Positions 1-8,899 of a DNA stretch of 8,899 nucleotides are shown here, piece by piece; the first letter of the stretch is position 1; each line of letters begins with the position of its first letter. Below the pieces are notes generated by a model. It did not search any database. It had not been told where the DNA came from and was given only the letters and a program-made list of their open reading frames with translations. The position numbers and the translations under genes are program-made. This DNA is from a virus (lineage: Duplodnaviria; Heunggongvirae; Uroviricota; Caudoviricetes): IMG/VR virus record IMGVR_UViG_2600255005_000007, positions 1 through 8,899 of that record; one strand, written 5' to 3'.

Positions 1-477
1 GTGATAAAGCGTGTTTTGCAGGCTGCGTTCGATGTCATCAACGCTGCGCCGCTGGCTGGCAGAGAGCGAGGCAATAAACGCTTCGGCTTTTTCCGGCGAC
101 TGCTGGCGATAAAGATTCGCCAGCCCGCGCACGGCGTTAGTGTTGCTACTGTCCATACGCAGCGTCTGCTGGTAATAGCGTTCAGCGGCGGGGTAATCTT
201 TGCGCGCCATCGCCACATCGCCCAGCCCCAGCACCGCATAGCTGTCGGCGTTATCGACATTGCGCGCCTGCTGGAACAGGCGTTCTGCCCGGTCGGGATT
301 ATTGGCTTTCAGCGCAGCATCGCCCTGCTGGATCGCCAGCCAGTAGCGATTCACCTTCAGCAGACTGTTCCATTTGTCGTTGTTGCTGCTGTGCGGATCC
401 AGCGCGAGGGCTTTTTCCAGATTCGCCACCGCATTAGCACGATCGCCATTCTGAGAATACGCCTGCCCCAGCGCCCC
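1..477 (-). pseudogene. bcsC: Internal fragment of cellulose synthase operon protein C (BcsC, TPR region). The N-terminal side is cut at 477/478; the gene continues past the window start.
   Basis: Reverse-complement translation of 477..1 reads GALGQAYSQNGDRANAVANLEKALALDPHSSNNDKWNSLLKVNRYWLAIQQGDAALKANNPDRAERLFQQARNVDNADSYAVLGLGDVAMARKDYPAAERYYQQTLRMDSSNTNAVRGLANLYRQQSPEKAEAFIASLSASQRRSVDDIERSLQN. I recognise this as the central TPR part of enterobacterial BcsC, nearly identical to my recollection of the E. coli protein. It is missing from the ORF track because it has no start or stop inside the window. Similarity ends abruptly at 477/478. Confidence 0.85.
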
Positions 478-2088
478 CGGAACGCGGCGAAAACATCAGA
501 GACGAATGCAGGTAACAGCGCGAAAGCGGCAGCTTCTTCAAAAACAGCCGCACAAAATGCAGCAACAGCGGCAGAACATTCAGAGACAAATGCCCGTGCG
601 TCAGAGGAAGCCTCCGCAGACAGTGAAGAGGCTTCCCGCCGTAATGCAGAGTCAGCCGCTGAAAATGCCGGAATCGCCACCACAAAAGCGCGGGAGGCCG
701 CAGCAGACGCAACAAAGGCCGGGCAGAAAAAGGATGAGGCTCTGTCGGCAGCGACACGAGCAGAAAAGGCGGCAGACCGCGCAGAAGCCGCAGCGGAAGT
801 GACTGCAGAGCCCTATGCGAATATAGTGCCGCCGCTGCCTGATGTATGGATACCGTTTAACGATACACTGGATATGATTACGGGGTTTTCGCCATCATAT
901 AAAAAGATTGTTATTGGTGACGATGAAATAACAATGCCAGGCGACAAGATTGTTAAGTTTAAACGTGCTTCAACAGCAACGTATATTAATAAGTCCGGCC
1001 AACTCAAGCTTGCTGAAGTTGATGAACCGCGATTTGAGCGCGATGGCTTATTGATTGAAGGACAGAGGACAAATTATCTGAGGAACTCAAATAAACCAGA
1101 CTCATGGACTGTTCATTCCGCACTGAATAAAACATTTGGCACTGATAAACAGGGGTTCAATTATGCCACGGTGACACCCACGGAAAGTATAGTGGGAACA
1201 ACAGGTGGCTATACTGTGCATGGTGTGGTTGCAGCAGACAGATTCCCGCTGGCAAGTGGTGAATGTTTCACTTTTTCGTGCCGGGTTAAAGGCGCTAAAG
1301 CACGATGCAGGTTAAGAGTTTCAGTTATTATTGGTGGAACAGATACATTCTCTGCTGACTCTTATCTTGATCTGGATACCCGGATCGCAACAGTAAGCGG
1401 TAATACATCCCTTATAACAGCCAAAGCTGAACAACAGGGCGAGTGGACCTACTATGAGGCCACTTATACAGCTAATACGGACATTGATACCGTTAACTGT
1501 GCTTTTTATATGACAAATAAAATAAGTAATGAGCCATTCTATGATGACTCAACATTAACCATGACGACGCCGCAAATTGAACTGGGCAATACGGCATCGT
1601 CATTTATTGTAACTACAATGCCAACAACACGCGCAAGTGATGTGGTTACTATCCCATCGCAGAATAACCTGTCAACACGGCCTTTTACGGTATTGTGCGA
1701 AGTAAGCAGGAACTGGAGTACACCGCCCAATGTTGCGCCAAGGATATTTGATGTTGGAGGGCACAGTATTGATGATAATTATTTATCGCTGGGGTTTGTT
1801 TCAACAGGAAAGATAAGCGCCAACGTAGGAATGGTTCAGCCACAAATTTCCTCAGATGGAGAAAGGTTCATTGTGGGTGTGAGAGCTAAATCTGATTTAT
1901 CAGTAAATGCAATATGCAGTGGTAATTATACAACAAACCTTAATGGTAAAATATTTGGAGTTACAGCAACATCGTACCGGTTTGGTGGGCAGACCGCAGC
2001 AGGAACGCGTCATTTGTTTGGACACATCAGAAATTTCAGAGTCTGGTTTAAAGAATTAAATGACAGGCAAATCAAGGAGGCAGTATGA
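478..2088 (+). CDS. Phage side tail fibre protein, 5'-truncated: Ala/Ser/Thr/Glu-rich shaft repeats followed by a distal receptor-binding region
   Basis: From 478 the frame reads RNAAKTSETNAGNSAKAAASSKTAAQNAATAAEHSETNARASEEA..., the low-complexity shaft repeat typical of lambdoid Stf-like fibres. A globular distal part follows, about 420 aa, ending ...TRHLFGHIRNFRVWFKELNDRQIKEAV. That tail resembles the usual end of LamG/ConA-like jelly-roll domains. The TGA stop at 2086-2088 overlaps the next ATG. There is no start codon of its own; the upstream open frame (1-477) is bcsC antisense. Confidence 0.8.
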   Translation, partial: RNAAKTSETNAGNSAKAAASSKTAAQNAATAAEHSETNARASEEASADSEEASRRNAESAAENAGIATTKAREAAADATKAGQKKDEALSAATRAEKAADRAEAAAEVTAEPYANIVPPLPDVWIPFNDTLDMITGFSPSYKKIVIGDDEITMPGDKIVKFKRASTATYINKSGQLKLAEVDEPRFERDGLLIEGQRTNYLRNSNKPDSWTVHSALNKTFGTDKQGFNYATVTPTESIVGTTGGYTVHGVVAADRFPLASGECFTFSCRVKGAKARCRLRVSVIIGGTDTFSADSYLDLDTRIATVSGNTSLITAKAEQQGEWTYYEATYTANTDIDTVNCAFYMTNKISNEPFYDDSTLTMTTPQIELGNTASSFIVTTMPTTRASDVVTIPSQNNLSTRPFTVLCEVSRNWSTPPNVAPRIFDVGGHSIDDNYLSLGFVSTGKISANVGMVQPQISSDGERFIVGVRAKSDLSVNAICSGNYTTNLNGKIFGVTATSYRFGGQTAAGTRHLFGHIRNFRVWFKELNDRQIKEAV

Positions 2089-2679: not shown

Positions 2680-3033
2680 GCTGTATATGCAACGGAGGAA
2701 GAAACCCGGGAGAAAGCGCGGATACAGAAACCGGGTGCCTGTCACATCTTCCGGCACTCGATGGCAACGCAGATGCTGGACAACGGCGCAGACACGCGGC
2801 ACATCCAGGCGATCCTCGGCCATGAGAAGCTGGAGACGACGCAGATCTACACGCGGGTAGCCATCGGTCACTTACAGGAAGTTCACGCGCTGACGCACCC
2901 GGAAGAGCAGGACGAGACGTGGACGGATCGGCACGTTGCGGATGCGGTGGCAGAGCCGCAGACGCGCCGGGAGCGTAATCACGCAGAGATGGAGCGGGCG
3001 CTGGTCAGCAGGAAACGCCGCCGGAGACGCTGA
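2680..3033 (+). pseudogene. C-terminal catalytic fragment of a tyrosine recombinase/integrase; the N-terminal two thirds are missing
   Basis: The translation contains ...KARIQKPGACHIFRHSMATQMLDNGADTRHIQAILGHEKLETTQIYTRVAIGHL. This gives the H-x-x-R box, the LGH box and the catalytic Tyr (IYTRV) of the XerC/D-phage integrase superfamily. The first catalytic Arg and the core-binding domain are absent. The upstream part of ORF 2614-3033 only overlaps the membrane-protein gene in another frame. The left boundary is approximate, about 2670-2700. Confidence 0.8.
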
Positions 3034-3110
3034 TGCAGGCCGGAAGCGTGATCATCGCCGGACTGCCTGAAAAGTTAGCGGGCGATCCCTGTAAGGCCGT
3101 GGGGTGAGGT

Positions 3111-3154
3111 GCAGGGCAGACAACCGCCTTCCCTGGCGGTTGACTGCCCCCTGC
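3111..3154. repeat. Imperfect inverted repeat / hairpin 1
   Basis: Perfect 8-bp core caaccgcc (3121-3128) / ggcggttg (3135-3142) with a 6-nt loop, ttccct. The outer arms gcagggcaga / actgccccctgc extend the pairing with one A-A mismatch and a 2-nt bulge. Confidence 0.7.
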
Positions 3155-3174
3155 CAGCGGAGTGCGCGGGGGTA

Positions 3175-3240
3175 AATGCCGTTCGCCCCGTGGAGGCAGG
3201 CGTGTCCCATGCGGCCACGGCGCACGGGGCAAACGTCATT
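3175..3240. repeat. Imperfect inverted repeat / hairpin 2
   Basis: The 18-nt arms aatgccgttcgccccgtg (3175-3192) and cacggggcaaacgtcatt (3223-3240) pair at 16 of 18 positions around a 30-nt loop. Confidence 0.7.
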
Positions 3241-3242
3241 CA

Positions 3243-3339
3243 ACATAATGCGGGGGATTATGCGCACTCTCGCCGGGTGGCAACGGCGGCGAACCCGACC
3301 CGCTGTGCGCGGCTCGTGTTCGCACAATCCGCATTATGT
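3243..3339. repeat. Imperfect inverted repeat / hairpin 3
   Basis: Perfect 11-bp outer stem acataatgcgg (3243-3253) / ccgcattatgt (3329-3339). After a GGG bulge, an inner stem attatgcgcac (3257-3267) pairs with gtgttcgcaat-type sequence (3318-3328) at 9 of 11 positions. The apical region is about 50 nt. Confidence 0.7.
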
Positions 3340-3975
3340 CTTGCGCCCCCGCGTTCAGCCCCTTAACCAGTGCCACGCGCAGCAGCTCGCTGGCGCTCGC
3401 TCCTGCCGTCTCAGCGGCGGTGTCCTTCCTCAGCGCCGCAGTCGCCGCCATCCCTGGCGGCTCCGGTGCCGTTCTGCGGCGGCGTCATCGTGTGGCAGTC
3501 AGTCAGAAAAGGGTGTCGGCCTGGCGGCCTCCGCTTGTAAGGGCTTTATGCCCGCCCGGCGTCGTCTGGCTGCGGCGGCTCGTGCCGCGCAAAAAGGCCG
3601 CGCGTCACTCGTTCCCGCCTCGCCAGCTTCCGCTGCCCGCCCCGGTCCGGTGTGGTCATGCAAAGGCCAGCTCCGGTCAGGCAGCGGTGCCACAGAGCGC
3701 CGTTCCGTCGCTTGCGGACTCTCTGCCGCCCGCACCCGCAGACCCCGCGCCGTGGCCCCGCCATGCCGCCGGAGGCGGCCTGGCGGCCCCCCGTCACGGG
3801 TTGCCGGAAACGGACTTAGTGGAAAGCGGAATGACAGGTTCGTGGCGGTGGTGATATGGTGAGCGGGCGTGAAAACGCGCGTCGGGAAAGCCGGGTTAAC
3901 GTGCTGTTAAATAATTAAAAGGTGATAGCCGTGAAGCCAGAAACGGCGCGGGCGGTAGCGTGTTAAAAAGTATGA

Positions 3976-4401
3976 CCCGCACCGGATCGTCCCGATGACC
4001 CGATAGGGCTGAGAGGCGGATTAAACTTATACCAATACGCGCCTAATCCAGTAAACTGGATCGATCCTTTGGGTTTGAAATGTGGGCAACCTGAATGGAC
4101 AAATCATGGATACAAACATTTTCCTCCAAAAAACAAATCATGGAAGGATATAATTAAATCAACAAAATCAGGCCCGGCAAAATATTCTCCAGATATTGAT
4201 ATTAAAACGTTGGAATACGATGTTTTTAATACAGGCACACCTGTTACGAACGGTAAACCATGGAAAGTAAAAGATATGGGAAAAGTTATTGGGGCCAGTG
4301 AGGGTAAAGAATCTCAATGGGTTCGAGTTGAACTTAGCGGTGGGACAATACATGGACATCCTATATCAATCGATGAATTCCGAAGGCTAACAACATCATG
4401 A
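3976..4401 (+). CDS. Orphan Rhs C-terminal toxin tip 1: core-end remnant plus a toxin domain of unrecognised family, about 110 aa, with no start codon of its own
   Basis: The open frame reads [49 protein letters not shown]...[27 protein letters not shown]. DPIGLxGGxNxYxYxxNPxxxxDPxGL is the hallmark boundary between the Rhs/YD core and its variable toxin tip. The 'start' in the ORF track (4069) is only the TTG encoding a Leu of DPLGL. Upstream, tatgacccg (YDP) sits in another frame, so the remnant is frameshifted. Confidence 0.8.
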
Positions 4402-4691
4402 ACATTGATTTCTTAGGAAAAAAAGGGAATATAGTTTTTAATGACTTCTCCCTGAAACAAAGCATCCCTCTTAATGAACAGCGAGATGAACTTAAGGAAG
4501 ATATGCTCCAGGTTGAATATCCTGGTGGGTATCTTTTGGATGTTGGGTGGCGACCATCTTTTGATATAAATGGGAAGTTTTATATTTGTTTAATAAAGGA
4601 TTTTGATTGGGATTATCCCATTTATAATGGTTCTGCGAAAGATATTGTCTCATTATTATTTGAAATTAACCAAGCTATAAATAAACTTTAA
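4398..4691 (+). CDS. Putative cognate immunity protein 1 (97 aa)
   Basis: ATGA overlap with the toxin stop. AT-rich. The small cytoplasmic-looking protein sits immediately 3' of an Rhs-CT, the canonical immunity position. A terminator hairpin follows. Confidence 0.65.
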
Positions 4692-4700
4692 ATAAACTTT

Positions 4701-4740
4701 AAAAAAACTGGGAAGAAAATTAAATCTTCCCGGCTTTTTA
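4701..4740. terminator. Bidirectional rho-independent terminator between immunity 1 and SymE-like copy A
   Basis: Stem ctgggaag (4708-4715) / cttcccgg (4726-4733), 8 bp including one G-U pair, with a 10-nt loop. It is flanked by an A7 run on the left (4701-4707) and T5 on the right (4735-4739). Confidence 0.7.
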
Positions 4741-5006
4741 TTATTTAACTCTCGTTCAGCACACTAAACATCCCGTTCCGCATCCCCTTAACCGCCTGTT
4801 TGACCTGGTAAAGTTCCCTGCGCAGTTCCTGTACTTCGTTGTTATCCGCTAGCAGGATCAGGCAACCTTCCGAGATCTTCACGGTAACGCCCGTGCCGAT
4901 CTCAAATCCCGCTTCTCTCAGCCATTTGGCGCTGATTTTGATCACCGGCGTGTCGCTTCGGTTGGGCAGATAGCCCACGGTACAGTGGCGCTGTGTTTTG
5001 GAAATG
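4719..5006. repeat. Direct repeat copy A (288 bp): right half of the terminator plus the SymE-like ORF
   Basis: Aligns base for base with 7311-7599, with 7 substitutions and 1 T-run indel. Identity ends sharply after ...gtgttttggaaatg. Confidence 0.9.
4745..4978 (-). CDS. SymE-family (AbrB/SpoVT-fold, type I toxin-like) protein, copy A, probably 5'-truncated
   Basis: The translation ...TVGYLPNRSDTPVIKISAKWLREAGFEIGTGVTVKISEGCLILLA... matches the SymE signature as I recall it from E. coli SymE ([48 protein letters not shown]). The only available start is the GTG that encodes the Val of TVGY, and it has no SD. The frame stays open upstream to a TAA with no start codon. Confidence 0.7.
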   Translation of the reverse strand: MGYLPNRSDTPVIKISAKWLREAGFEIGTGVTVKISEGCLILLADNNEVQELRRELYQVKQAVKGMRNGMFSVLNES

Positions 5007-5159
5007 ATATTTTTGTATTTAACCTGCTGATTAGATAGTAAAATAAACTTCGTGCAGATAGCTTACTTTGTCAGGGTGTGGCGGTAGCGTATGAACTATG
5101 ACGTGATGGTTTTAGTGATTTATAGACGAAACTGACAGTACGATCCGGACTTCGATTAG

Positions 5160-5621
5160 ATTGCGCGATTTGACCCGATAGGGCTGGCGGGGGGGCTGAA
5201 TCTTTATCAGTATGCGCCGAATCCGTTAAACTGGATCGATCCGCTTGGATTAAGTTGCTCTAGTGATGCAAAAAAATTATCTGGTAATTTAGGATCAGCA
5301 CCAAGTAGTCACTATCGACCACATCATATGGTTATGTCTAATTCCAGCGATGTGCGTATGCGGTGGTTACGTAGAAGGATGGATCGGTTAGGTATAGATA
5401 TAAACGATTCCAAAAATGGTGTATGGCTACCCAAAAACTCTGATTATCGGTTACCGGGGACAAAAGCTACTGCTCATGGTGGTGAAGGTGTACATGGAAA
5501 TGCATATAAACAACATGTGTGGGATACGTTGAAAAATGCAAGAACAAAAGCTGATTTTGAAGCAGGGCTTGCGCAACTTAAAGTAGAGCTAAGTACTGGC
5601 AAAACGTTTCCTGTCCAATAA
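5160..5621 (+). CDS. Orphan Rhs C-terminal toxin tip 2: HNH/EndoVII-superfamily AHH-type nuclease domain, no start codon of its own
   Basis: The open frame after TAG (5157-5159) reads [40 protein letters not shown]...[10 protein letters not shown]...[16 protein letters not shown]...[15 protein letters not shown]. The xHH dyad, the downstream NG-x-x-LP and the H-x-x-H-x-x-Y fit the AHH nuclease toxin family, here with PHH. The M at 5328 in the ORF track is internal, in the middle of the HH motif. Confidence 0.8.
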
Positions 5622-5634
5622 GGAGTATGATCAC

Positions 5635-6252
5635 ATGAAAGATTTTCTGAAAAGTTTATATGAAGATTACAATGGAAAGTATTCGGAACTGATAGAACAG
5701 ATGAACGGAGAAAAGGCTACTTGTAGATGGGGGTATGGTGTTATGCCTGCCTTCTCTATAGAACCTTATGCATCCGAGCTTTTAGGTCATAAACCGGGAC
5801 GAATGTTGAAAAATAACTCAATCGCAGGAGTAAATAAACAATGCTATTATGTTGATGAACAAAACAGGATAATAGAAGGAATTACATACGCCAGCCATCG
5901 TAAGAAAGATAATGAATGGATTGTGTATAGAAATTTTTATATTTACCAAGAAAATACCATTCTTGGGCTTTTGTATAGTAGTACATTTGAAGATAGTAAA
6001 AACACAGGATTGAATAAGATTGTATTTATAAGCATTGATAATAAATTAATAAATAATAAGTATACTTTCATGTATGATGGGGAGTATTCTGAGGTAGATT
6101 ATATTTATAATAAAGATAAAATAATAAAAATAGACCAAAGGGTATGGTCTTCGTTTTATTTTGAACGCACTTATCTGATAGAGTCAAATGATCCATTGAT
6201 TATTAATGAATACTTAGAAAATAGTGGGAACATCAGGATCTACCCTACTTAA
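5635..6252 (+). CDS. Putative cognate immunity protein 2 (205 aa)
   Basis: Good SD (taAGGAGtatgatcacATG) 13 nt after the toxin stop. Very AT-rich. Immunity position. I recognise no domain. Confidence 0.65.
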   Translation: MKDFLKSLYEDYNGKYSELIEQMNGEKATCRWGYGVMPAFSIEPYASELLGHKPGRMLKNNSIAGVNKQCYYVDEQNRIIEGITYASHRKKDNEWIVYRNFYIYQENTILGLLYSSTFEDSKNTGLNKIVFISIDNKLINNKYTFMYDGEYSEVDYIYNKDKIIKIDQRVWSSFYFERTYLIESNDPLIINEYLENSGNIRIYPT

Positions 6253-6345
6253 TTTATCAAAGTAAGAGACTAATATATGGACTATGATGCGGCTGTTTCA
6301 GGGATATGCGATTGAAGCCAGTAGTATGATCCTGCGATGGGGTAG

Positions 6346-6801
6346 ATTCACCGTCCTGATCCGATAGGGCTGGCGGGGGGAATAAACCTCTATGCTTATG
6401 CGCCGAATCCAGTAAACCACATTGATCCTCTTGGGCTATCTTGTGGAAAGGTTGGTAACGTTGAATATCGTAATTTTGAGCGTTCTCCGGGAATGTTTTC
6501 TCGGTTATTAAAGAATAAACGTGACTTTGATTATGTTGCCAGATATAACATCTCAAGATATAAAGCTACATTGAGAAAAAATAATCCGGATGGTTTTGGT
6601 AATATTAGCCATTATTTCGATGGTGTAGATGCAAAAGGAAATAAAGTCGTTATTGAGGTGGCGAATACAGGGCATAAATCTTCAAGCGGTGGTTTTGAGC
6701 CTCCACATATTAAAATTCAAATAAAAGACGCTGATAACAAAGTGATACATAATGCCAAATATTTTTTGGAAGATGATATATATAGAATTACGGGCAAATA
6801 A
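6346..6801 (+). CDS. Orphan Rhs C-terminal toxin tip 3: toxin domain of unrecognised family, about 125 aa, with no start codon of its own
   Basis: The open frame after TAG (6343-6345) reads [76 protein letters not shown]...PPHIKIQIKDADNKVIHNAKYFLEDDIYRITGK. It has the same core/toxin boundary motif. The M at 6493 in the ORF track is internal. Confidence 0.8.
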   Translation: MHRPDPIGLAGGINLYAYAPNPVNHIDPLGLSCGKVGNVEYRNFERSPGMFSRLLKNKRDFDYVARYNISRYKATLRKNNPDGFGNISHYFDGVDAKGNKVVIEVANTGHKSSSGGFEPPHIKIQIKDADNKVIHNAKYFLEDDIYRITGK

Positions 6802-7260
6802 ATGAAAAATATTAGAGAGTTAAATAATGCAGAATTCTCCGGGCTTATTAACAATGCTTTACCATTCTTACATATTAATCCTATAAGCGAAGCTGTTTGT
6901 ATTCATGCAGAAGCTTATAAAAGTGGTATTGATGTTAACTATATCCGTTGCAACGTTGACTGGGAGGGGTTTTCTTCTTTAACTGAAGCGTTGGAAACGT
7001 TATACCATGAATTATTTAAAGATGGTATTCCATCAGGCGAATTGTTGTTTTTTTACCCGTTTGATAGAACAAAGAAAGGGAATTATGGTGTTATACTGGA
7101 ATCATCTCAGCTATTAGATTTCTTAATAAAAGAGCATTTGAAGATTTATCCTGAATGTTTTAATGTAGAAATGTGTAGCTTCGGTTTTTATTTTATAGAT
7201 CACGAAATATTTTACGGCATGGAACATCCTGATTTTTTATATAGTTTCTGTGTAAGATAA
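6802..7260 (+). CDS. Putative cognate immunity protein 3 (152 aa)
   Basis: The ATG directly abuts the toxin TAA (taaATG), implying translational coupling. AT-rich. Immunity position. A terminator hairpin follows. Confidence 0.65.
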   Translation: MKNIRELNNAEFSGLINNALPFLHINPISEAVCIHAEAYKSGIDVNYIRCNVDWEGFSSLTEALETLYHELFKDGIPSGELLFFYPFDRTKKGNYGVILESSQLLDFLIKEHLKIYPECFNVEMCSFGFYFIDHEIFYGMEHPDFLYSFCVR

Positions 7261-7297
7261 TTAATAAAGTGAGGAGTATATTTCTCTTTCTTAATCG

Positions 7298-7332
7298 CCG
7301 GGAAAGGTAGATTAAATCTTCCCGGCTTTTTT
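7298..7332 (+). terminator. Rho-independent terminator after immunity 3, homologous to the one at 4701-4740
   Basis: Stem ccgggaa (7298-7304) / ttcccgg (7319-7325), followed by gc and T6 (7327-7332). Confidence 0.7.
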
Positions 7333-7599
7333 ATTATTTAACGTTCGTTCAGCACACTAAACATCCCGTCCCGCATCCCCTTAACAGCCTGTTTAACCTG
7401 ATAAAGTTCCCTGCGCAGTTCCTGTACTTCGTTGTTATCCGCTAGCAGGATCAGGCAACCTTCCGAGATCTTCACGGTAACGCCCGTGCCGATCTCAAAT
7501 CCCGCTTCTCTCAGCCATTTGGCGCTGATTTTGATCACCGGCGTGTCGCTGCGGTTGGGCAGATAGCCCACGGTACAGTGGCGCTGTGTTTTGGAAATG
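7311..7599. repeat. Direct repeat copy B (289 bp)
   Basis: See copy A. The repeat ends at the same ...ggaaatg, after which the primase-like frame begins. Confidence 0.9.
7338..7571 (-). CDS. SymE-family protein, copy B, probably 5'-truncated. The ORF track extends it to 7619.
   Basis: Same sequence as copy A with 2 amino-acid differences (N/D, and terminal S/R). The 16 extra N-terminal codons in the track (7572-7619) begin with a GTG that lies outside the repeat, on the antisense of the primase fragment, and has no SD. I treat that extension as fortuitous. Confidence 0.7.
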   Translation of the reverse strand: MGYLPNRSDTPVIKISAKWLREAGFEIGTGVTVKISEGCLILLADNNEVQELRRELYQVKQAVKGMRDGMFSVLNER

Positions 7600-8824
7600 G
7601 TGGGCCGCACTGCTGGCACACGGCGTCAGGCAGGTACTGATCGCCTACGACAACGATCCGGCGGGCAATGAGGCGGCGGTGAAACTGGCTTCTTCCTTAG
7701 CCGCTTCCGGGATCGCCACGTTCCGCGTACTGTTCCCGGCGGGCATGGATGCGAACGGTTATCTGTGCAGTGTGGCAGAGCCGGAACAGGCGTTCAGTCT
7801 GTTGCTGGATGGCGCGGTGCCCATGAGTGACCTGGCCGATGCGGAGAGTATCGCGCCGCAGGCCAGCGCGGAGCCTGCACACCTGACTTCATTAGCTGCC
7901 GGGGTTGCGGTCTTACCCGCAGCCGCCGCGCCTGCACCGGGCGTCAGCGTGGAAACCCTGGCCGATGGCGAACTGATGGTAGCCTTACCCGGCGAACGCT
8001 GGACTATCAGGGGCGTAAGCCGCAAACCGAACGTCGCCGCGATGAAGGTCAATGCGCAGGTGCTGGACACCAACAGCGGCGTGGTGTTCGCTGATGCGGT
8101 GGATATGATGAGCGCCCGCAGCCGTTCCGGTTATGCGCGGGCCGCAGCGGCAGAGCTTGGGCTTGCCGAAGGCGACCTGCGCCGTTCGCTGGGTAAGGTG
8201 CTGCTGGCGCTGGAGCACTGGCAGGCGGCACCGGAGCCGGAGAGCGTCGCCCCGGAGATGACGCCGGAAGATCGGGAGGCGGCGCTGGATCTGCTGCGCG
8301 ACGAGTGTCTTGCCGGGCGCATCGCTTCTGATATGGCGGCGTGTGGCGTGGTGGGTGAGTCCACCAACCTGACGGCGGCGTATCTGGCGGCGGTGTCACG
8401 CAAACTGGAGCGCCCGCTTGCCGTTCTCATCCAGTCGTCGAGCGCGGCGGGTAAGTCCAGCTTAATGGATGCGGTGCTCAATCTGATCCCGCCAGAGGAA
8501 CGGCTGCAATACAGCGCCATGACCGGGCAGAGCCTGTTCTACCTCGGCGAAACCAACCTGCAACACAAGATCCTCGCCATCGCAGAAGAAGAAGGTGTGC
8601 GCCAGGCGGCGTATGCGCTGAAACTGTTGCAATCAGACGGGGAACTGACCATCGCCAGTACGGGCAAGGACGACGCCAGCGGCAACCTGGTCACCAAACA
8701 GTACACGGTGAAAGGCCCGGTGATGCTGATGCTGACCACCACGGCGATCGACGTCGATGAAGAACTGTTAAACCGCTGCCTGGTGCTGACGGTGAACGAG
8801 TCGCGGGAGCAGACGGAGGCCGAA
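7598..8824 (+). pseudogene. Internal fragment of a Toprim / P-loop NTPase primase-helicase-like protein of an integrative or conjugative element, truncated at both ends
   Basis: VLIAYDNDPAGNEAAVKLA...FRVLFPAGMDANGYL looks like the distal Toprim DxD region. Later, LIQSSSAAGKSSLMDAV is Walker A-like and HKILAIAEEEG is Walker B-like. The codon usage is GC-rich and coding-like, and all minus-strand ORFs here are shadows. There is no native start because the frame enters from the SymE repeat. At the 3' end the reading frame runs into the rrn leader and stops there fortuitously. Confidence 0.7.
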
Positions 8825-8899
8825 CTGCTCTTTAACAATTTATCAGACAATCTGTGTGGGCACTCGAAGATACGGATTCTTAACGTCCTCGGACGATAA
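8824..8899 (+). promoter_or_regulatory. rRNA operon leader including the boxA antitermination element; 16S rRNA expected just downstream of the window
   Basis: actgctctttaacaatttatcagacaatctgtgtgggcactcgaagatacggattcttaacgtc is identical to my recollection of the E. coli rrn leader downstream of P2. boxA tgctctttaacaa is at 8826-8838. The following small hairpin differs in a compensatory way (cgtcctcggacg versus cgtcgcaagacg), consistent with a natural rrn variant. Confidence 0.8.

What the first reader, a model, noticed from the sequence alone, without database searches (positions are those of the whole stretch)
4719..7599. 288-bp direct repeats bracket a 2.3-kb two-toxin cassette and break at the identical nucleotide
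4719-5006 and 7311-7599 are about 97% identical (7 substitutions, 1 indel). They flank orphan 2/immunity 2 and orphan 3/immunity 3. Both copies lose identity at exactly the same base (...gtgttttggaaatg|), inside the 5' part of the SymE-like ORF. Copy A is followed by AT-rich spacer and copy B by the GC-rich primase fragment. An R-X-R architecture predicts RecA-dependent loss or amplification of the cassette. It is also what insertion of a circular X-R intermediate into a pre-existing R would leave. This could be a mechanism for expanding or contracting an orphan toxin library.
Basis: partly seen in the sequence, partly recalled or inferred. Interest (0 to 1): 0.6.

Follow-up and report, generated by a model that had tools for sequence, protein, structure and literature searches.

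The report
symE repeats flank Rhs toxin cassettes
The two 288-bp repeats are copies of a small toxin gene (symE) that sit at the ends of swappable Rhs toxin-immunity cassettes and do recombine with each other, but the "break at the same base" is partly true by definition and partly an artefact of how this draft genome was stitched together.

Summary
The repeat is real: 4719-5006 and 7311-7599 differ by 7 substitutions and 1 indel. Each copy is the 3' ~90% of a symE-family gene on the minus strand, convergent with the immunity gene to its left.

The "identical break" carries no information.
- Two copies of a repeat always diverge at one column.
- Copy A is truly truncated at 5006. It is fused to a 164-bp spacer plus a degenerate Rhs core end. 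This junction is inherited and occurs in several Escherichia genomes, behind at least 4 unrelated immunity genes.
- Copy B matches intact symE up to 7602. Its join to the primase fragment is most likely a contig-concatenation joint. Eight or more independent assemblies show a full symE, a symR-like RNA, an HTH gene and a 983-aa primase there.

The R-X-R idea is supported.
- One relative differs from the window at 3 of 3,607 positions, and two are the same A>G at homologous sites of the two repeats. That is gene conversion.
- The content between immunity 1-symE and symE-HTH varies among relatives (four states, one empty).
- No isogenic strain pair differing by exactly the 2,593-bp unit was found.

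The array is cargo of a GC-rich HTH-primase-XerC element that forms tandem arrays downstream of Rhs genes. I rate it a new variant of a known kind, of moderate interest.

The parts
2707..3033 (+). C-terminal fragment of the XerC-like tyrosine recombinase of the element. Its left edge at 2706 is probably a contig joint.
   Evidence: Pfam Phage_integrase. The window is 99.98% identical to L011 from position 2706 on. The exact E1/E2 repeat in L011 ends 3 nt before this point.
3034..3995 (.). GC-rich (about 65-71%) non-coding stretch that follows XerC in every element. Its last ~60 nt are a degenerate Rhs core end ('E flank').
   Evidence: Composition. No homology to an Rhs core. Conserved among elements, with a variable patch at 3356-3500. 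Flank classes.
3996..4076 (+). Copy 1 of the 81-nt Rhs core-end motif (encodes DPIGL..NP....DPLGL). It is the left boundary of cassette 1.
   Evidence: Family D2. Flank analysis.
3997..4401 (+). Orphan Rhs C-terminal toxin 1 (CT1). No Pfam match.
   Evidence: The same CT is fused to a full-length Rhs in E. coli FDAARGOS_1373.
4398..4691 (+). Putative immunity gene 1 (97 aa).
4708..4733 (.). Bidirectional terminator-like hairpin between immunity 1 and symE copy A. The left edge of the repeat lies inside it.
4719..5006 (-). Repeat copy A: a symE gene lacking its first 32 nt, its promoter and symR. This is the 'type I' junction at 5006/5007.
5007..5170 (.). Spacer that always follows the type I junction: about 70 nt of AT-rich sequence plus about 95 nt of degenerate Rhs core end ('S flank').
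5171..5251 (+). Copy 2 of the 81-nt Rhs core-end motif.
5172..5621 (+). Orphan toxin 2 (CT2), an AHH-family HNH/EndoVII nuclease.
   Evidence: Pfam PF14412, E=1.2e-10.
5635..6252 (+). Putative immunity gene 2 (205 aa).
6357..6437 (+). Copy 3 of the 81-nt Rhs core-end motif, preceded by a degenerate core remnant at 6253-6356.
6358..6801 (+). Orphan toxin 3 (CT3). No Pfam match.
6802..7260 (+). Putative immunity gene 3 (152 aa).
7311..7602 (-). Repeat copy B: symE. It is identical to intact symE up to 7602, and the remaining 29 nt of the ORF are missing from this record only.
7603..8821 (+). Internal fragment of the element's primase (equivalent to residues ~289-695 of a 983-aa protein). Both ends are probably contig joints.
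   Evidence: 100% identical to L011 12298-13517. Each end lies 20-21 nt from an exact-repeat boundary. The continuation lies elsewhere, reversed.
4872..4903 (.). 13-6-13 imperfect palindrome inside the repeat. The second copy is at 7465-7496.

Best explanation
Each repeat is a symE-family gene (type I toxin, minus strand) that forms the conserved right-hand end of an Rhs C-terminal-toxin/immunity module. The conserved left-hand end is the 81-nt Rhs core-end motif.

In the real genome the locus is most likely organised as in the near-identical E. ruysiae relative: XerC - 1-kb GC-rich stretch - [CT1-imm1-symE(truncated)] - spacer - [CT2-imm2][CT3-imm3-symE(intact)] - symR-like RNA - HTH - primase - XerC. 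That is the cargo of a roughly 7-10-kb GC-rich integrative element, which sits in tandem arrays downstream of a T6SS-linked full-length Rhs.

Copy A is a dead symE. An old illegitimate event fused it at codon 11 to a degenerate Rhs core end. This 'linker' has since been inherited and moved behind different immunity genes.

The symE segments act as portable homology. Crossovers and gene conversion within them, together with exchanges at the 81-nt core-end motif, add, remove and reshuffle cassettes. They probably also let circular forms enter by a Campbell-type crossover.

Shown here:
- the identity of the repeats;
- inheritance of the copy-A junction;
- linkage of the left part of symE to the immunity gene on its left, with the right part independent;
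- gene conversion between the two copies;
- cassette polymorphism.

Inferred:
- RecA dependence;
- the direction of the events;
- circular intermediates;
- the role of the XerC-like recombinase.

The abrupt join of copy B to a primase fragment in this window is most likely a contig joint, not biology.
For: - Repeat anatomy and Pfam SymE match.
- Intact relatives carry a symR-like RNA at the symE start (RF01809, 48.7 bits, E=3.5e-8).
- symE follows Rhs-imm in element-free loci and in arrays at three chromosomal rhs loci.
- The type I junction plus spacer is conserved: 3 complete E. coli genomes with 6 places, E. ruysiae and others. It lies behind at least 4 unrelated immunity genes.
- A second inherited junction (type II, symE fused to about 1.2 kb of Rhs core) lies behind 3. 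The same immunity gene is followed by type II in one genome and by intact symE in another.
- Among 25 distinct copies there are 13 type I, 7 intact, 4 type II and 1 window-specific.
- Alleles in the left ~90 bp follow immunity 1 whatever lies to the right. L021_1463 has a copy-A-like left part, a copy-B-like right part and an intact 5' end followed by HTH-primase.
- Gene conversion: L012 differs from window 3996-7602 at only 4865 A>G, 6003 C>T and 7458 A>G. Positions 4865 and 7458 are homologous repeat positions.
- Four cassette states are seen between imm1-symE and symE-HTH.
- The block CT1-imm1-symE(truncated)-spacer is 100% identical between two genomes whose flanks differ, with the joints at the 81-nt motif.
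- Copy B is intact in L011-L018.
- Contig-joint evidence.
Against: - No pair of otherwise isogenic genomes differing by exactly the 2,593-bp unit was found. Every assembly that carries imm2/imm3 has the full arrangement.
- The 'empty' state (L020) sits on a somewhat different backbone (HTH of 123 aa, primase of 951 aa). It is not a simple deletion derivative.
- RecA dependence, circles and rates cannot be tested in silico.
- The contig-joint reading of 7602/7603 is inferred from a relative and from neighbouring joints, not from reads.
- The HTH look-up did not locate the missing segment elsewhere in the source record.
- The 81-nt motifs in the window are only 73-75% identical, so they are poor substrates for homologous recombination within this array.
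Confidence: 0.72

Rival explanations
1. The base after ...TTTTGGAAATG is a specific recombination or cleavage site, for example the core site of the element's XerC-like recombinase. Independent events break symE there repeatedly.
For: - Three boundaries fall within 3 nt of each other: the type I junction, the end of copy B in this record, and the 3' end of the Rfam Ssr1 model.
- A XerC-like recombinase is encoded next to intact copies.
- The break lies where the symE 5' segment shared by both symE subfamilies begins.
Against: - The type I junction always carries the same homologous spacer, so it is one event inherited by descent.
- Copy B's end is best read as a contig joint.
- The Ssr1 boundary comes from an annotation-based 'intergenic region'.
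- Among species representatives, only intact symE or type I follows the 19-mer. The three other hits, in unrelated MAGs, are about the number expected by chance.
- A second inherited junction lies 35 nt away.
Confidence: 0.07
2. The source strain really carries a 1,496-bp deletion, made by illegitimate recombination at 1 nt of microhomology. It removed the symE start, symR, HTH and the first 288 primase codons, in a decaying element.
For: - The junction has a 1-nt overlap (G) and a weak flanking similarity, GA(A/G)ATG.
- Comparable decay exists elsewhere. E. coli 06-00048 has an intact symE followed by an N-terminally truncated primase and a frameshifted xerC.
- No HTH gene of this family was found on a contig of the source's length.
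Against: - All four odd joints in the window fall at or within 21 nt of exact-repeat boundaries of the 99.98%-identical relative.
- The missing segment is largely a 99-100% identical repeat between the two elements of that relative.
- The sequence that should follow 8821 starts at the very next base but lies reversed about 6 kb away.
- A lone 16S gene sits between the primase fragment and the middle of an adhesin gene.
Confidence: 0.15
3. The second repeat copy is an assembly duplication.
For: The source record is a poor, concatenated draft.
Against: - The copies differ at 8 positions.
- They have different left neighbours.
- Both are reproduced with the same differences in at least 8 independent assemblies.
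Confidence: 0.01
4. The repeated segment is kept because it works as a gene or RNA at each position (a symE/symR addiction module stabilising each cassette, or an antisense sRNA of the Ssr1/IsrA type). On this view, recombination is a side effect.
For: - Rfam Ssr1 matches both copies (260-265 bits, E about 1e-75), and isrA matches weakly.
- Ssr1 was detected as a transcript next to an Rhs gene in Shigella (PMC4782007).
- The central 150-200 bp is almost invariant among copies.
- A 13-6-13 palindrome is conserved in the repeat.
Against: - Internal copies always lack the start codon, the promoter and symR (17 of 25 copies). They cannot act as a toxin-antitoxin pair.
- The Rfam scores are far below the family threshold of 820 bits and cover only the part of the model that is symE antisense.
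- High conservation is equally explained by gene conversion, which is directly seen.
Confidence: 0.15

Closest known systems
Rhs orphan toxin/immunity arrays formed by C-terminal displacement (Jackson et al. 2009, cited from my own knowledge; Poole et al. 2011, PMC3150448; Koskiniemi et al. 2014, PMC3967940)
   Same: - CT/immunity pairs without a delivery domain lie downstream of a full-length Rhs.
- Each is preceded by a fragment of the conserved core end.
- Direct repeats allow homologous recombination to delete, amplify or activate orphans.
   Different: - Here the longest and most similar repeat is a symE gene remnant (288 bp, 97%) at the downstream end of the modules, not the Rhs core fragment.
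- A fixed linker (truncated symE, spacer, degenerate core) separates cassettes.
- The array rides on an HTH-primase-XerC element.
symE/symR type I toxin-antitoxin locus of E. coli K-12 (Pfam PF08845, Rfam RF01809)
   Same: - The protein family is the same (55 bits against a cut-off of 29).
- Intact relatives have a 75-nt antisense RNA that starts a few nucleotides inside the ORF, as symR does.
   Different: - Both window copies lack the 5' end. Copy A truly does, and copy B does so in this record only.
- The gene is not in the hsd region. It is tied to polymorphic-toxin loci: Rhs in Escherichia and Pectobacterium, CdiA in Serratia and Proteus.
- The symR match is below the Rfam threshold of 61 bits.
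Immunity-gene arrays shaped by recombination between tandem paralogues or flanking conserved sequence: V. cholerae T6SS (PMC5361080), T7SS esaG arrays (PMC9484751), and polyimmunity loci next to XerC/D recombinases (Zhang et al. 2012, PMC3482391)
   Same: - Arrays grow and shrink by homologous recombination.
- A tyrosine recombinase is sometimes encoded next to them.
   Different: - Here the homology is an unrelated third gene (symE), not the immunity or effector genes.
- The recombinase is part of a primase-bearing element that is itself tandemly repeated.
Rfam Ssr1 (RF02627), a Shigella flexneri sRNA mapped between Rhs gene SF0268 and SF0269
   Same: The plus strand of both repeats aligns to the 3' ~285 nt of the model, which is symE antisense.
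   Different: - The scores are 260-275 bits against a threshold of 820.
- The upstream half of the model (immunity-gene region) does not match.
- No transcript data exist for this locus.

Membership tests
SymE type I toxin (PF08845 / NF010128) | Protein matches the SymE_toxin profile above the curated cut-off | tested here: met
   Copy B ORF: 55.1 bits against a cut-off of 29. The intact relative scores 47 bits against NCBIfam PRK13605, below that model's 132-bit equivalog cut-off. It is therefore a family member, not the K-12 equivalog.
SymE type I toxin (PF08845 / NF010128) | Complete ORF with start codon and its own promoter | tested here: not met
   Copy A lacks the first 32 nt. Copy B lacks the first 29 nt in this record. 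Copy B is complete (97 aa) in relatives.
SymE type I toxin (PF08845 / NF010128) | Cis-encoded antisense RNA (SymR) overlapping the 5' end | tested here: inconclusive
   Absent from the window. In relative L011 a full-length RF01809 match lies at 10825-10899 (48.7 bits, E=3.5e-8), below the gathering score of 61.
Rhs orphan toxin/immunity module | CT preceded by the conserved Rhs core-end motif (DPxGL ... PxxxxDPxGL) but lacking the Rhs core and N-terminus | tested here: met
   Three copies of the 81-nt motif at 3996, 5171 and 6357. The same motif ends full-length Rhs genes in relatives. There is no Rhs core in the window.
Rhs orphan toxin/immunity module | Located downstream of a full-length, T6SS-linked Rhs gene | tested here: met
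   Not visible in the window, because of the contig joints. In relatives the order is VgrG - DcrB - Rhs - ... - same cassettes.
Rhs orphan toxin/immunity module | CT is a toxin neutralised by the adjacent small ORF | not testable with these tools
   Only CT2 has a toxin-domain match (AHH nuclease). CT1, CT3 and all three immunity ORFs have no Pfam match.
Direct-repeat (R-X-R) substrate for homologous recombination | Long, highly similar direct repeats flanking the unit | tested here: met
   288 bp at 97% identity. The right 197 bp is 99.5% identical.
Direct-repeat (R-X-R) substrate for homologous recombination | Evidence that the two copies exchange sequence | tested here: met
   The same A>G change occurs at homologous positions 4865 and 7458 in one relative. 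These are two of only three differences in 3,607 bp.
Direct-repeat (R-X-R) substrate for homologous recombination | Presence/absence polymorphism of exactly the R-X unit in otherwise identical backgrounds | tested here: inconclusive
   Cassette content between the repeats differs among relatives, and an empty state exists. No isogenic pair was found.
Direct-repeat (R-X-R) substrate for homologous recombination | RecA dependence; deletion, tandem or circular products detectable | not testable with these tools
   This needs reads or experiments.
Site-specific cassette system (integron-like or Xer-type) | A short defined core site at every cassette boundary, recognised by the adjacent tyrosine recombinase | tested here: inconclusive
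   - Cassette joints fall at the 81-nt motif and inside symE.
- The motif is mosaic on both sides, and the symE joints cannot be narrowed below about 150 bp.
- A 13-6-13 palindrome exists in the repeat, but by my reading of the alignment it is not kept in the 330-bp symE subfamily.
Rfam Ssr1 (RF02627) | Score at or above the gathering threshold over the full model | tested here: not met
   260-265 bits against 820.

The most novel reading that the evidence does not exclude
symE is the attachment handle of a previously undescribed family of small HTH-primase-XerC integrative elements in Enterobacterales. These elements carry Rhs (and possibly CDI) toxin-immunity cassettes as cargo. They enter polymorphic-toxin loci by recombining through symE, either site-specifically or by a Campbell-type crossover. 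Serial entries would build the tandem arrays and the orphan toxin libraries seen downstream of Rhs genes. If so, the elements are a dedicated vehicle for horizontal spread of interbacterial toxins and immunities.
Probability: 0.35. Interest if true: 0.75.

Novelty: new variant of a known kind. Interest (0 to 1): 0.45.

Why it matters
How new toxin tips and immunity genes reach Rhs and CDI loci, and how orphan arrays grow, is only partly understood. The usual answer is homologous recombination through fragments of the conserved core.

Here a different gene supplies the best homology. A dead or live symE copy sits at the end of each module, and the two copies in this array demonstrably exchange sequence.

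The array also rides on a GC-rich element with its own primase and tyrosine recombinase. That element occurs in up to four tandem copies behind Rhs genes in Escherichia and in at least three in Pectobacterium.

If symE is the handle by which such elements enter, several things would be explained:
- the scattered reports of symE next to T6SS, Rhs and CDI genes;
- a mechanism for toxin-library turnover that can be tested directly.

The finding also gives a practical warning. This window comes from a record made of concatenated contigs, so abrupt junctions in it should not be read as biology.

Tried and rejected
1. Recombinase attachment site. I tried to decide whether the element enters at the Rhs core/CT boundary or at symE.
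   - K-12 rhsE was uninformative because its CT is different.
   - The yafV locus of E. coli 06-00048 has a third, unrelated CT.
   - Array ends look the same under both models.
   - Pectobacterium L066 fits entry through symE, but it is a single case.
2. The 1-kb GC-rich stretch as a degenerate Rhs core. There is no DNA or translated similarity.
3. Hot spot at the break. The 19-mer census found only intact symE or type I after it.
4. Exact look-up of the 93-aa symE-fusion ORF. It is not on record, because the gene caller used the 77-aa start. The 77-aa form occurs in other arrays, but only the source has the primase fusion.
5. Finding the 'missing' HTH segment elsewhere in the source record. 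The exact HTH protein is not recorded on that contig, so this check was not decisive.
6. The AT-rich half of the spacer. It has no match anywhere except behind the type I junction, so its origin is unknown.
7. Literature. symE next to Rhs, CDI or hcp genes is mentioned in passing in Pantoea, Erwinia, Proteus and Xenorhabdus papers. I found no description of symE as a module boundary, or of the HTH-primase-XerC element, in the searchable library. This library does not cover all journals.

Full report
**1. The observation**

The window holds a direct repeat at 4719-5006 and 7311-7599, with start-to-start spacing 2592/2593. A pairwise alignment shows 7 substitutions and one 1-nt indel in a T-run. 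The two copies share no similarity on either side beyond a few bases of a terminator hairpin. Six substitutions and the indel lie in the left 90 bp, and the right 197 bp differ at one position (4959/7552).

Each copy overlaps a minus-strand ORF that matches Pfam SymE_toxin (55 bits against a cut-off of 29). Each copy sits convergently just downstream of a small plus-strand ORF. A bidirectional terminator-like hairpin lies at the left edge of copy A.

Between the repeats lie two modules, each opening with an 81-nt motif that encodes the Rhs core end (DPIGL...DPLGL). There are three copies of this motif, at 3996, 5171 and 6357.
- CT2 is an AHH nuclease (E=1.2e-10).
- CT1, CT3 and the three putative immunity ORFs have no Pfam match.

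**2. Where the window comes from, and why that matters**

An exact-protein look-up places the window at 4,231,089-4,239,987 of AEMF01000001.1 (GCA_000208585.2). An E. ruysiae record (CABVLQ01, locus L011; title) is 99.98% identical to window 2706-7602 and 100% identical to 7602-8821. Between those two stretches it has 1,496 extra bases. These carry the symE start, a symR-like RNA, an HTH gene and the first 288 codons of a 983-aa primase.

The source record is a chain of contigs joined without gap markers.
- Immediately after the primase fragment come an rrn leader and a complete 16S gene. About 50 nt later comes the middle of a YadA-like adhesin gene.
- The sequence that should follow window 8821 starts at exactly the next base of the relative, but lies reversed about 6 kb upstream.
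- The odd joints at 2706, 7602/3 and 8821 each fall 0-21 nt from the edge of an exact repeat in the relative.
- The 'missing' 1,496 bp is largely a 99-100% identical repeat between the relative's two elements.

I therefore read the join of copy B to the primase fragment as a contig joint (about 0.8), not a deletion. It is absent from 5,426 complete E. coli genomes. Eight or more independent assemblies with the same cassettes have a full 97-aa symE followed by HTH and primase.

**3. 'Break at the identical nucleotide'**

For a two-copy repeat this is true by construction. Measured against intact symE, copy A stops after ...TTTTGGAAATG (5006), 32 nt into the ORF. Copy B continues as genuine symE for three more bases, to 7602.

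Copy A's junction is old and inherited.
- The same junction, followed by a homologous 164-bp spacer, occurs twice in E. coli 06-00048, in two further complete E. coli genomes, in E. ruysiae and in many draft or metagenome contigs. The spacer is about 70 nt of AT-rich sequence of unknown origin plus about 95 nt of degenerate Rhs core end.
- A second inherited junction ('type II') cuts symE 35 nt further in and fuses it to about 1.2 kb of Rhs core.
- Among 25 distinct copies in the fetched loci, 13 are type I, 7 are intact, 4 are type II and 1 is the window-specific join.
- A scan of 185,579 species representatives for the 19-mer at the break found only intact symE or type I after it. Three further hits in unrelated MAGs are roughly the number expected by chance.

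There is no sign of a hot spot.

**4. What the repeats do**

Three results show that symE segments are used as homology.

(a) The type I junction is a unique event, yet it lies behind at least 4 unrelated immunity genes, and type II lies behind 3. One immunity gene is followed by type II in one genome and by intact symE-HTH in another. Alleles in the left ~90 bp of symE follow the immunity gene on the left, whatever lies to the right. This requires crossovers inside symE.

(b) The metagenome scaffold L012 differs from window 3996-7602 at only three positions: 4865 A>G, 6003 C>T and 7458 A>G. Positions 4865 and 7458 are the same site in the two repeats. My rough estimate of the chance probability is about 3e-4. 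This is gene conversion between copy A and copy B.

(c) The content between 'immunity 1-symE' and 'symE-HTH-primase' differs among close relatives:
- AHH CT2/imm2 plus CT3/imm3 (window, L011-L019);
- a Deam_C toxin with a 118-aa immunity ORF (L021, L026);
- an ART-HYD1 toxin with a 107-aa ORF (L028);
- nothing (L020/L021_1463). There the single symE has copy-A-type alleles on the left, copy-B-type alleles on the right and an intact 5' end.

On the left side of cassettes, exchanges occur at the 81-nt core-end motif. The block CT1-imm1-symE(truncated)-spacer is 100% identical between two genomes whose flanks differ. Three unrelated classes of sequence (full Rhs core, post-XerC flank, post-spacer flank) abut the motif.

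What I could not find is a pair of otherwise identical genomes that differ by exactly the 2,593-bp unit.

**5. The larger structure**

In E. coli, symE follows Rhs-immunity pairs even where nothing else is inserted.

In many genomes the next genes are an RstR-like HTH repressor on the minus strand, a primase of about 950-983 aa (zinc ribbon, Toprim and a P-loop region) and a XerC-family recombinase (NF002331, 526 bits). Then come about 1 kb of GC-rich non-coding DNA and the next cassette.

Other observations on this unit:
- It is repeated up to four times in tandem with different cargo (E. coli EC77).
- It occurs at three different rhs loci.
- It is 60-70% GC, against 27-45% for its cargo.
- One unit appears as an 8,758-bp circular 'plasmid' record in Shigella flexneri. 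That could be a true circle or a collapsed tandem repeat.
- Homologues of the HTH gene lead to the same gene order behind Rhs in Pectobacterium atrosepticum SCRI1043 (three or more tandem units). They also lead to a symE-HTH-primase remnant behind a CdiA gene in Serratia.

I could not fix the attachment site. In Pectobacterium L066 the order is Rhs-CT-imm-symE(intact)-backbone-CT-imm-symE(truncated)|core fragment-old CT. That is what a single crossover between a circular element's symE and a resident truncated symE would give.

**6. Comparison with what is known**

Orphan Rhs and CDI toxin arrays, and their rearrangement through direct repeats of core sequence, are established (PMC3150448, PMC3967940). 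Immunity arrays shaped by homologous recombination are known in V. cholerae and in T7SS loci (PMC5361080, PMC9484751). Polyimmunity loci next to XerC/D recombinases were noted in 2012 (PMC3482391).

symE next to T6SS, Rhs or CDI genes is mentioned in passing in several genome papers without explanation. The Shigella sRNA Ssr1 maps next to an Rhs gene, and its Rfam model matches both repeats only partially.

I found no description of symE as the module boundary, or of the HTH-primase-XerC carrier, in the searchable library. That library is incomplete.

**7. Verdict**

The repeat is real and biologically active as homology. The R-X-R reading is largely right. The 'identical break' is a tautology combined with a probable assembly joint.

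The finding is a new variant of a known kind: an orphan toxin array whose repeat is a symE remnant, carried on a primase-recombinase element. My interest score is 0.45. The more novel reading, symE as the handle of a toxin-cassette vehicle, has a probability of about 0.35 and would deserve about 0.75.

Noticed in passing
window 1-481, 479-2707, 8822-8899; L010 12169-13790: The window is a mosaic of unrelated pieces: an antisense bcsC fragment, a prophage tail-fibre region, element pieces, then the rrn leader (boxA region). In the source record a complete 16S gene follows, and then the middle of a YadA-like adhesin gene. The record (AEMF01000001.1) appears to be contigs concatenated without gap markers.
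   Followed up: yes
window 4667-4699: An 11-bp unit (TAAATAAACTT) between the immunity 1 stop codon and the terminator varies in copy number among otherwise near-identical assemblies: one unit fewer in L013, one more in L015, L018, L019 and L034.
   Followed up: partly
window 4872-4903 and 7465-7496: A 13-6-13 imperfect palindrome (GAGATCTTCACGG TAACGC CCGTGCCGATCTC, 11 of 13 complementary) lies inside each symE repeat. It has the layout of a tyrosine-recombinase core site or an RNA hairpin. It is nearly invariant in the 294-bp symE subfamily but, by my reading of the alignment, is not kept in the 330-bp subfamily.
   Followed up: partly
window 4575-5008 and 7057-7601 (+); L011 1174-1302 and 17624-17752 (+): Curated sRNA families lie antisense to symE. 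Rfam Ssr1 (a Shigella sRNA mapped beside an Rhs gene) matches both window repeats partially. isrA (a Salmonella island sRNA) matches the 330-bp symE subfamily above its threshold (115 bits). Both 'sRNAs' may simply be symE-antisense or read-through transcripts of Rhs immunity modules.
   Followed up: partly
window 7591-7596; L011 10790-10830: In intact copies a promoter-like pair (TTGGAA, 16 nt, TAATAT) sits just upstream of the symR-like RNA. This is my own reading of the sequence, not a tool result. The type I junction keeps the first hexamer and replaces the second. In copy A a TAACCT lies at the same spacing, so read-out towards the next cassette is conceivable.
   Followed up: no
window 3034-3995; L011 6233-7195 and 15690-16635: About 1 kb of 65-71% GC non-coding DNA follows xerC in every element. 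It is conserved except for a variable patch around 3356-3500. It has no similarity to the Rhs core. Gene callers place spurious ORFs of 111-219 aa in it.
   Followed up: partly
L003 (NZ_CP055112.1, whole record): An 8,758-bp circular 'plasmid' record of Shigella flexneri equals one unit of the tandem array (xerC, GC-rich stretch, ISEc1-interrupted CT, immunity gene, symE, HTH, primase). It may be an excised circle or a collapsed tandem repeat.
   Followed up: no
L067 (Pectobacterium atrosepticum SCRI1043, 3.80-3.82 Mb); L068-L070 (Serratia): The same symE-HTH-primase-XerC unit occurs in three or more tandem copies in Pectobacterium, some with two adjacent symE genes. A symE-HTH-primase remnant, with a ParE-type toxin nearby, follows a CdiA gene in Serratia.
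   Followed up: partly
L049 (GCA_018428365.1), L006 (E. coli 06-00048): Some arrays hold three or more truncated symE copies with different cassettes between them, for example a Barstar-like immunity gene. ISEc1/ISAs1 copies are often inserted inside cassettes.
   Followed up: no
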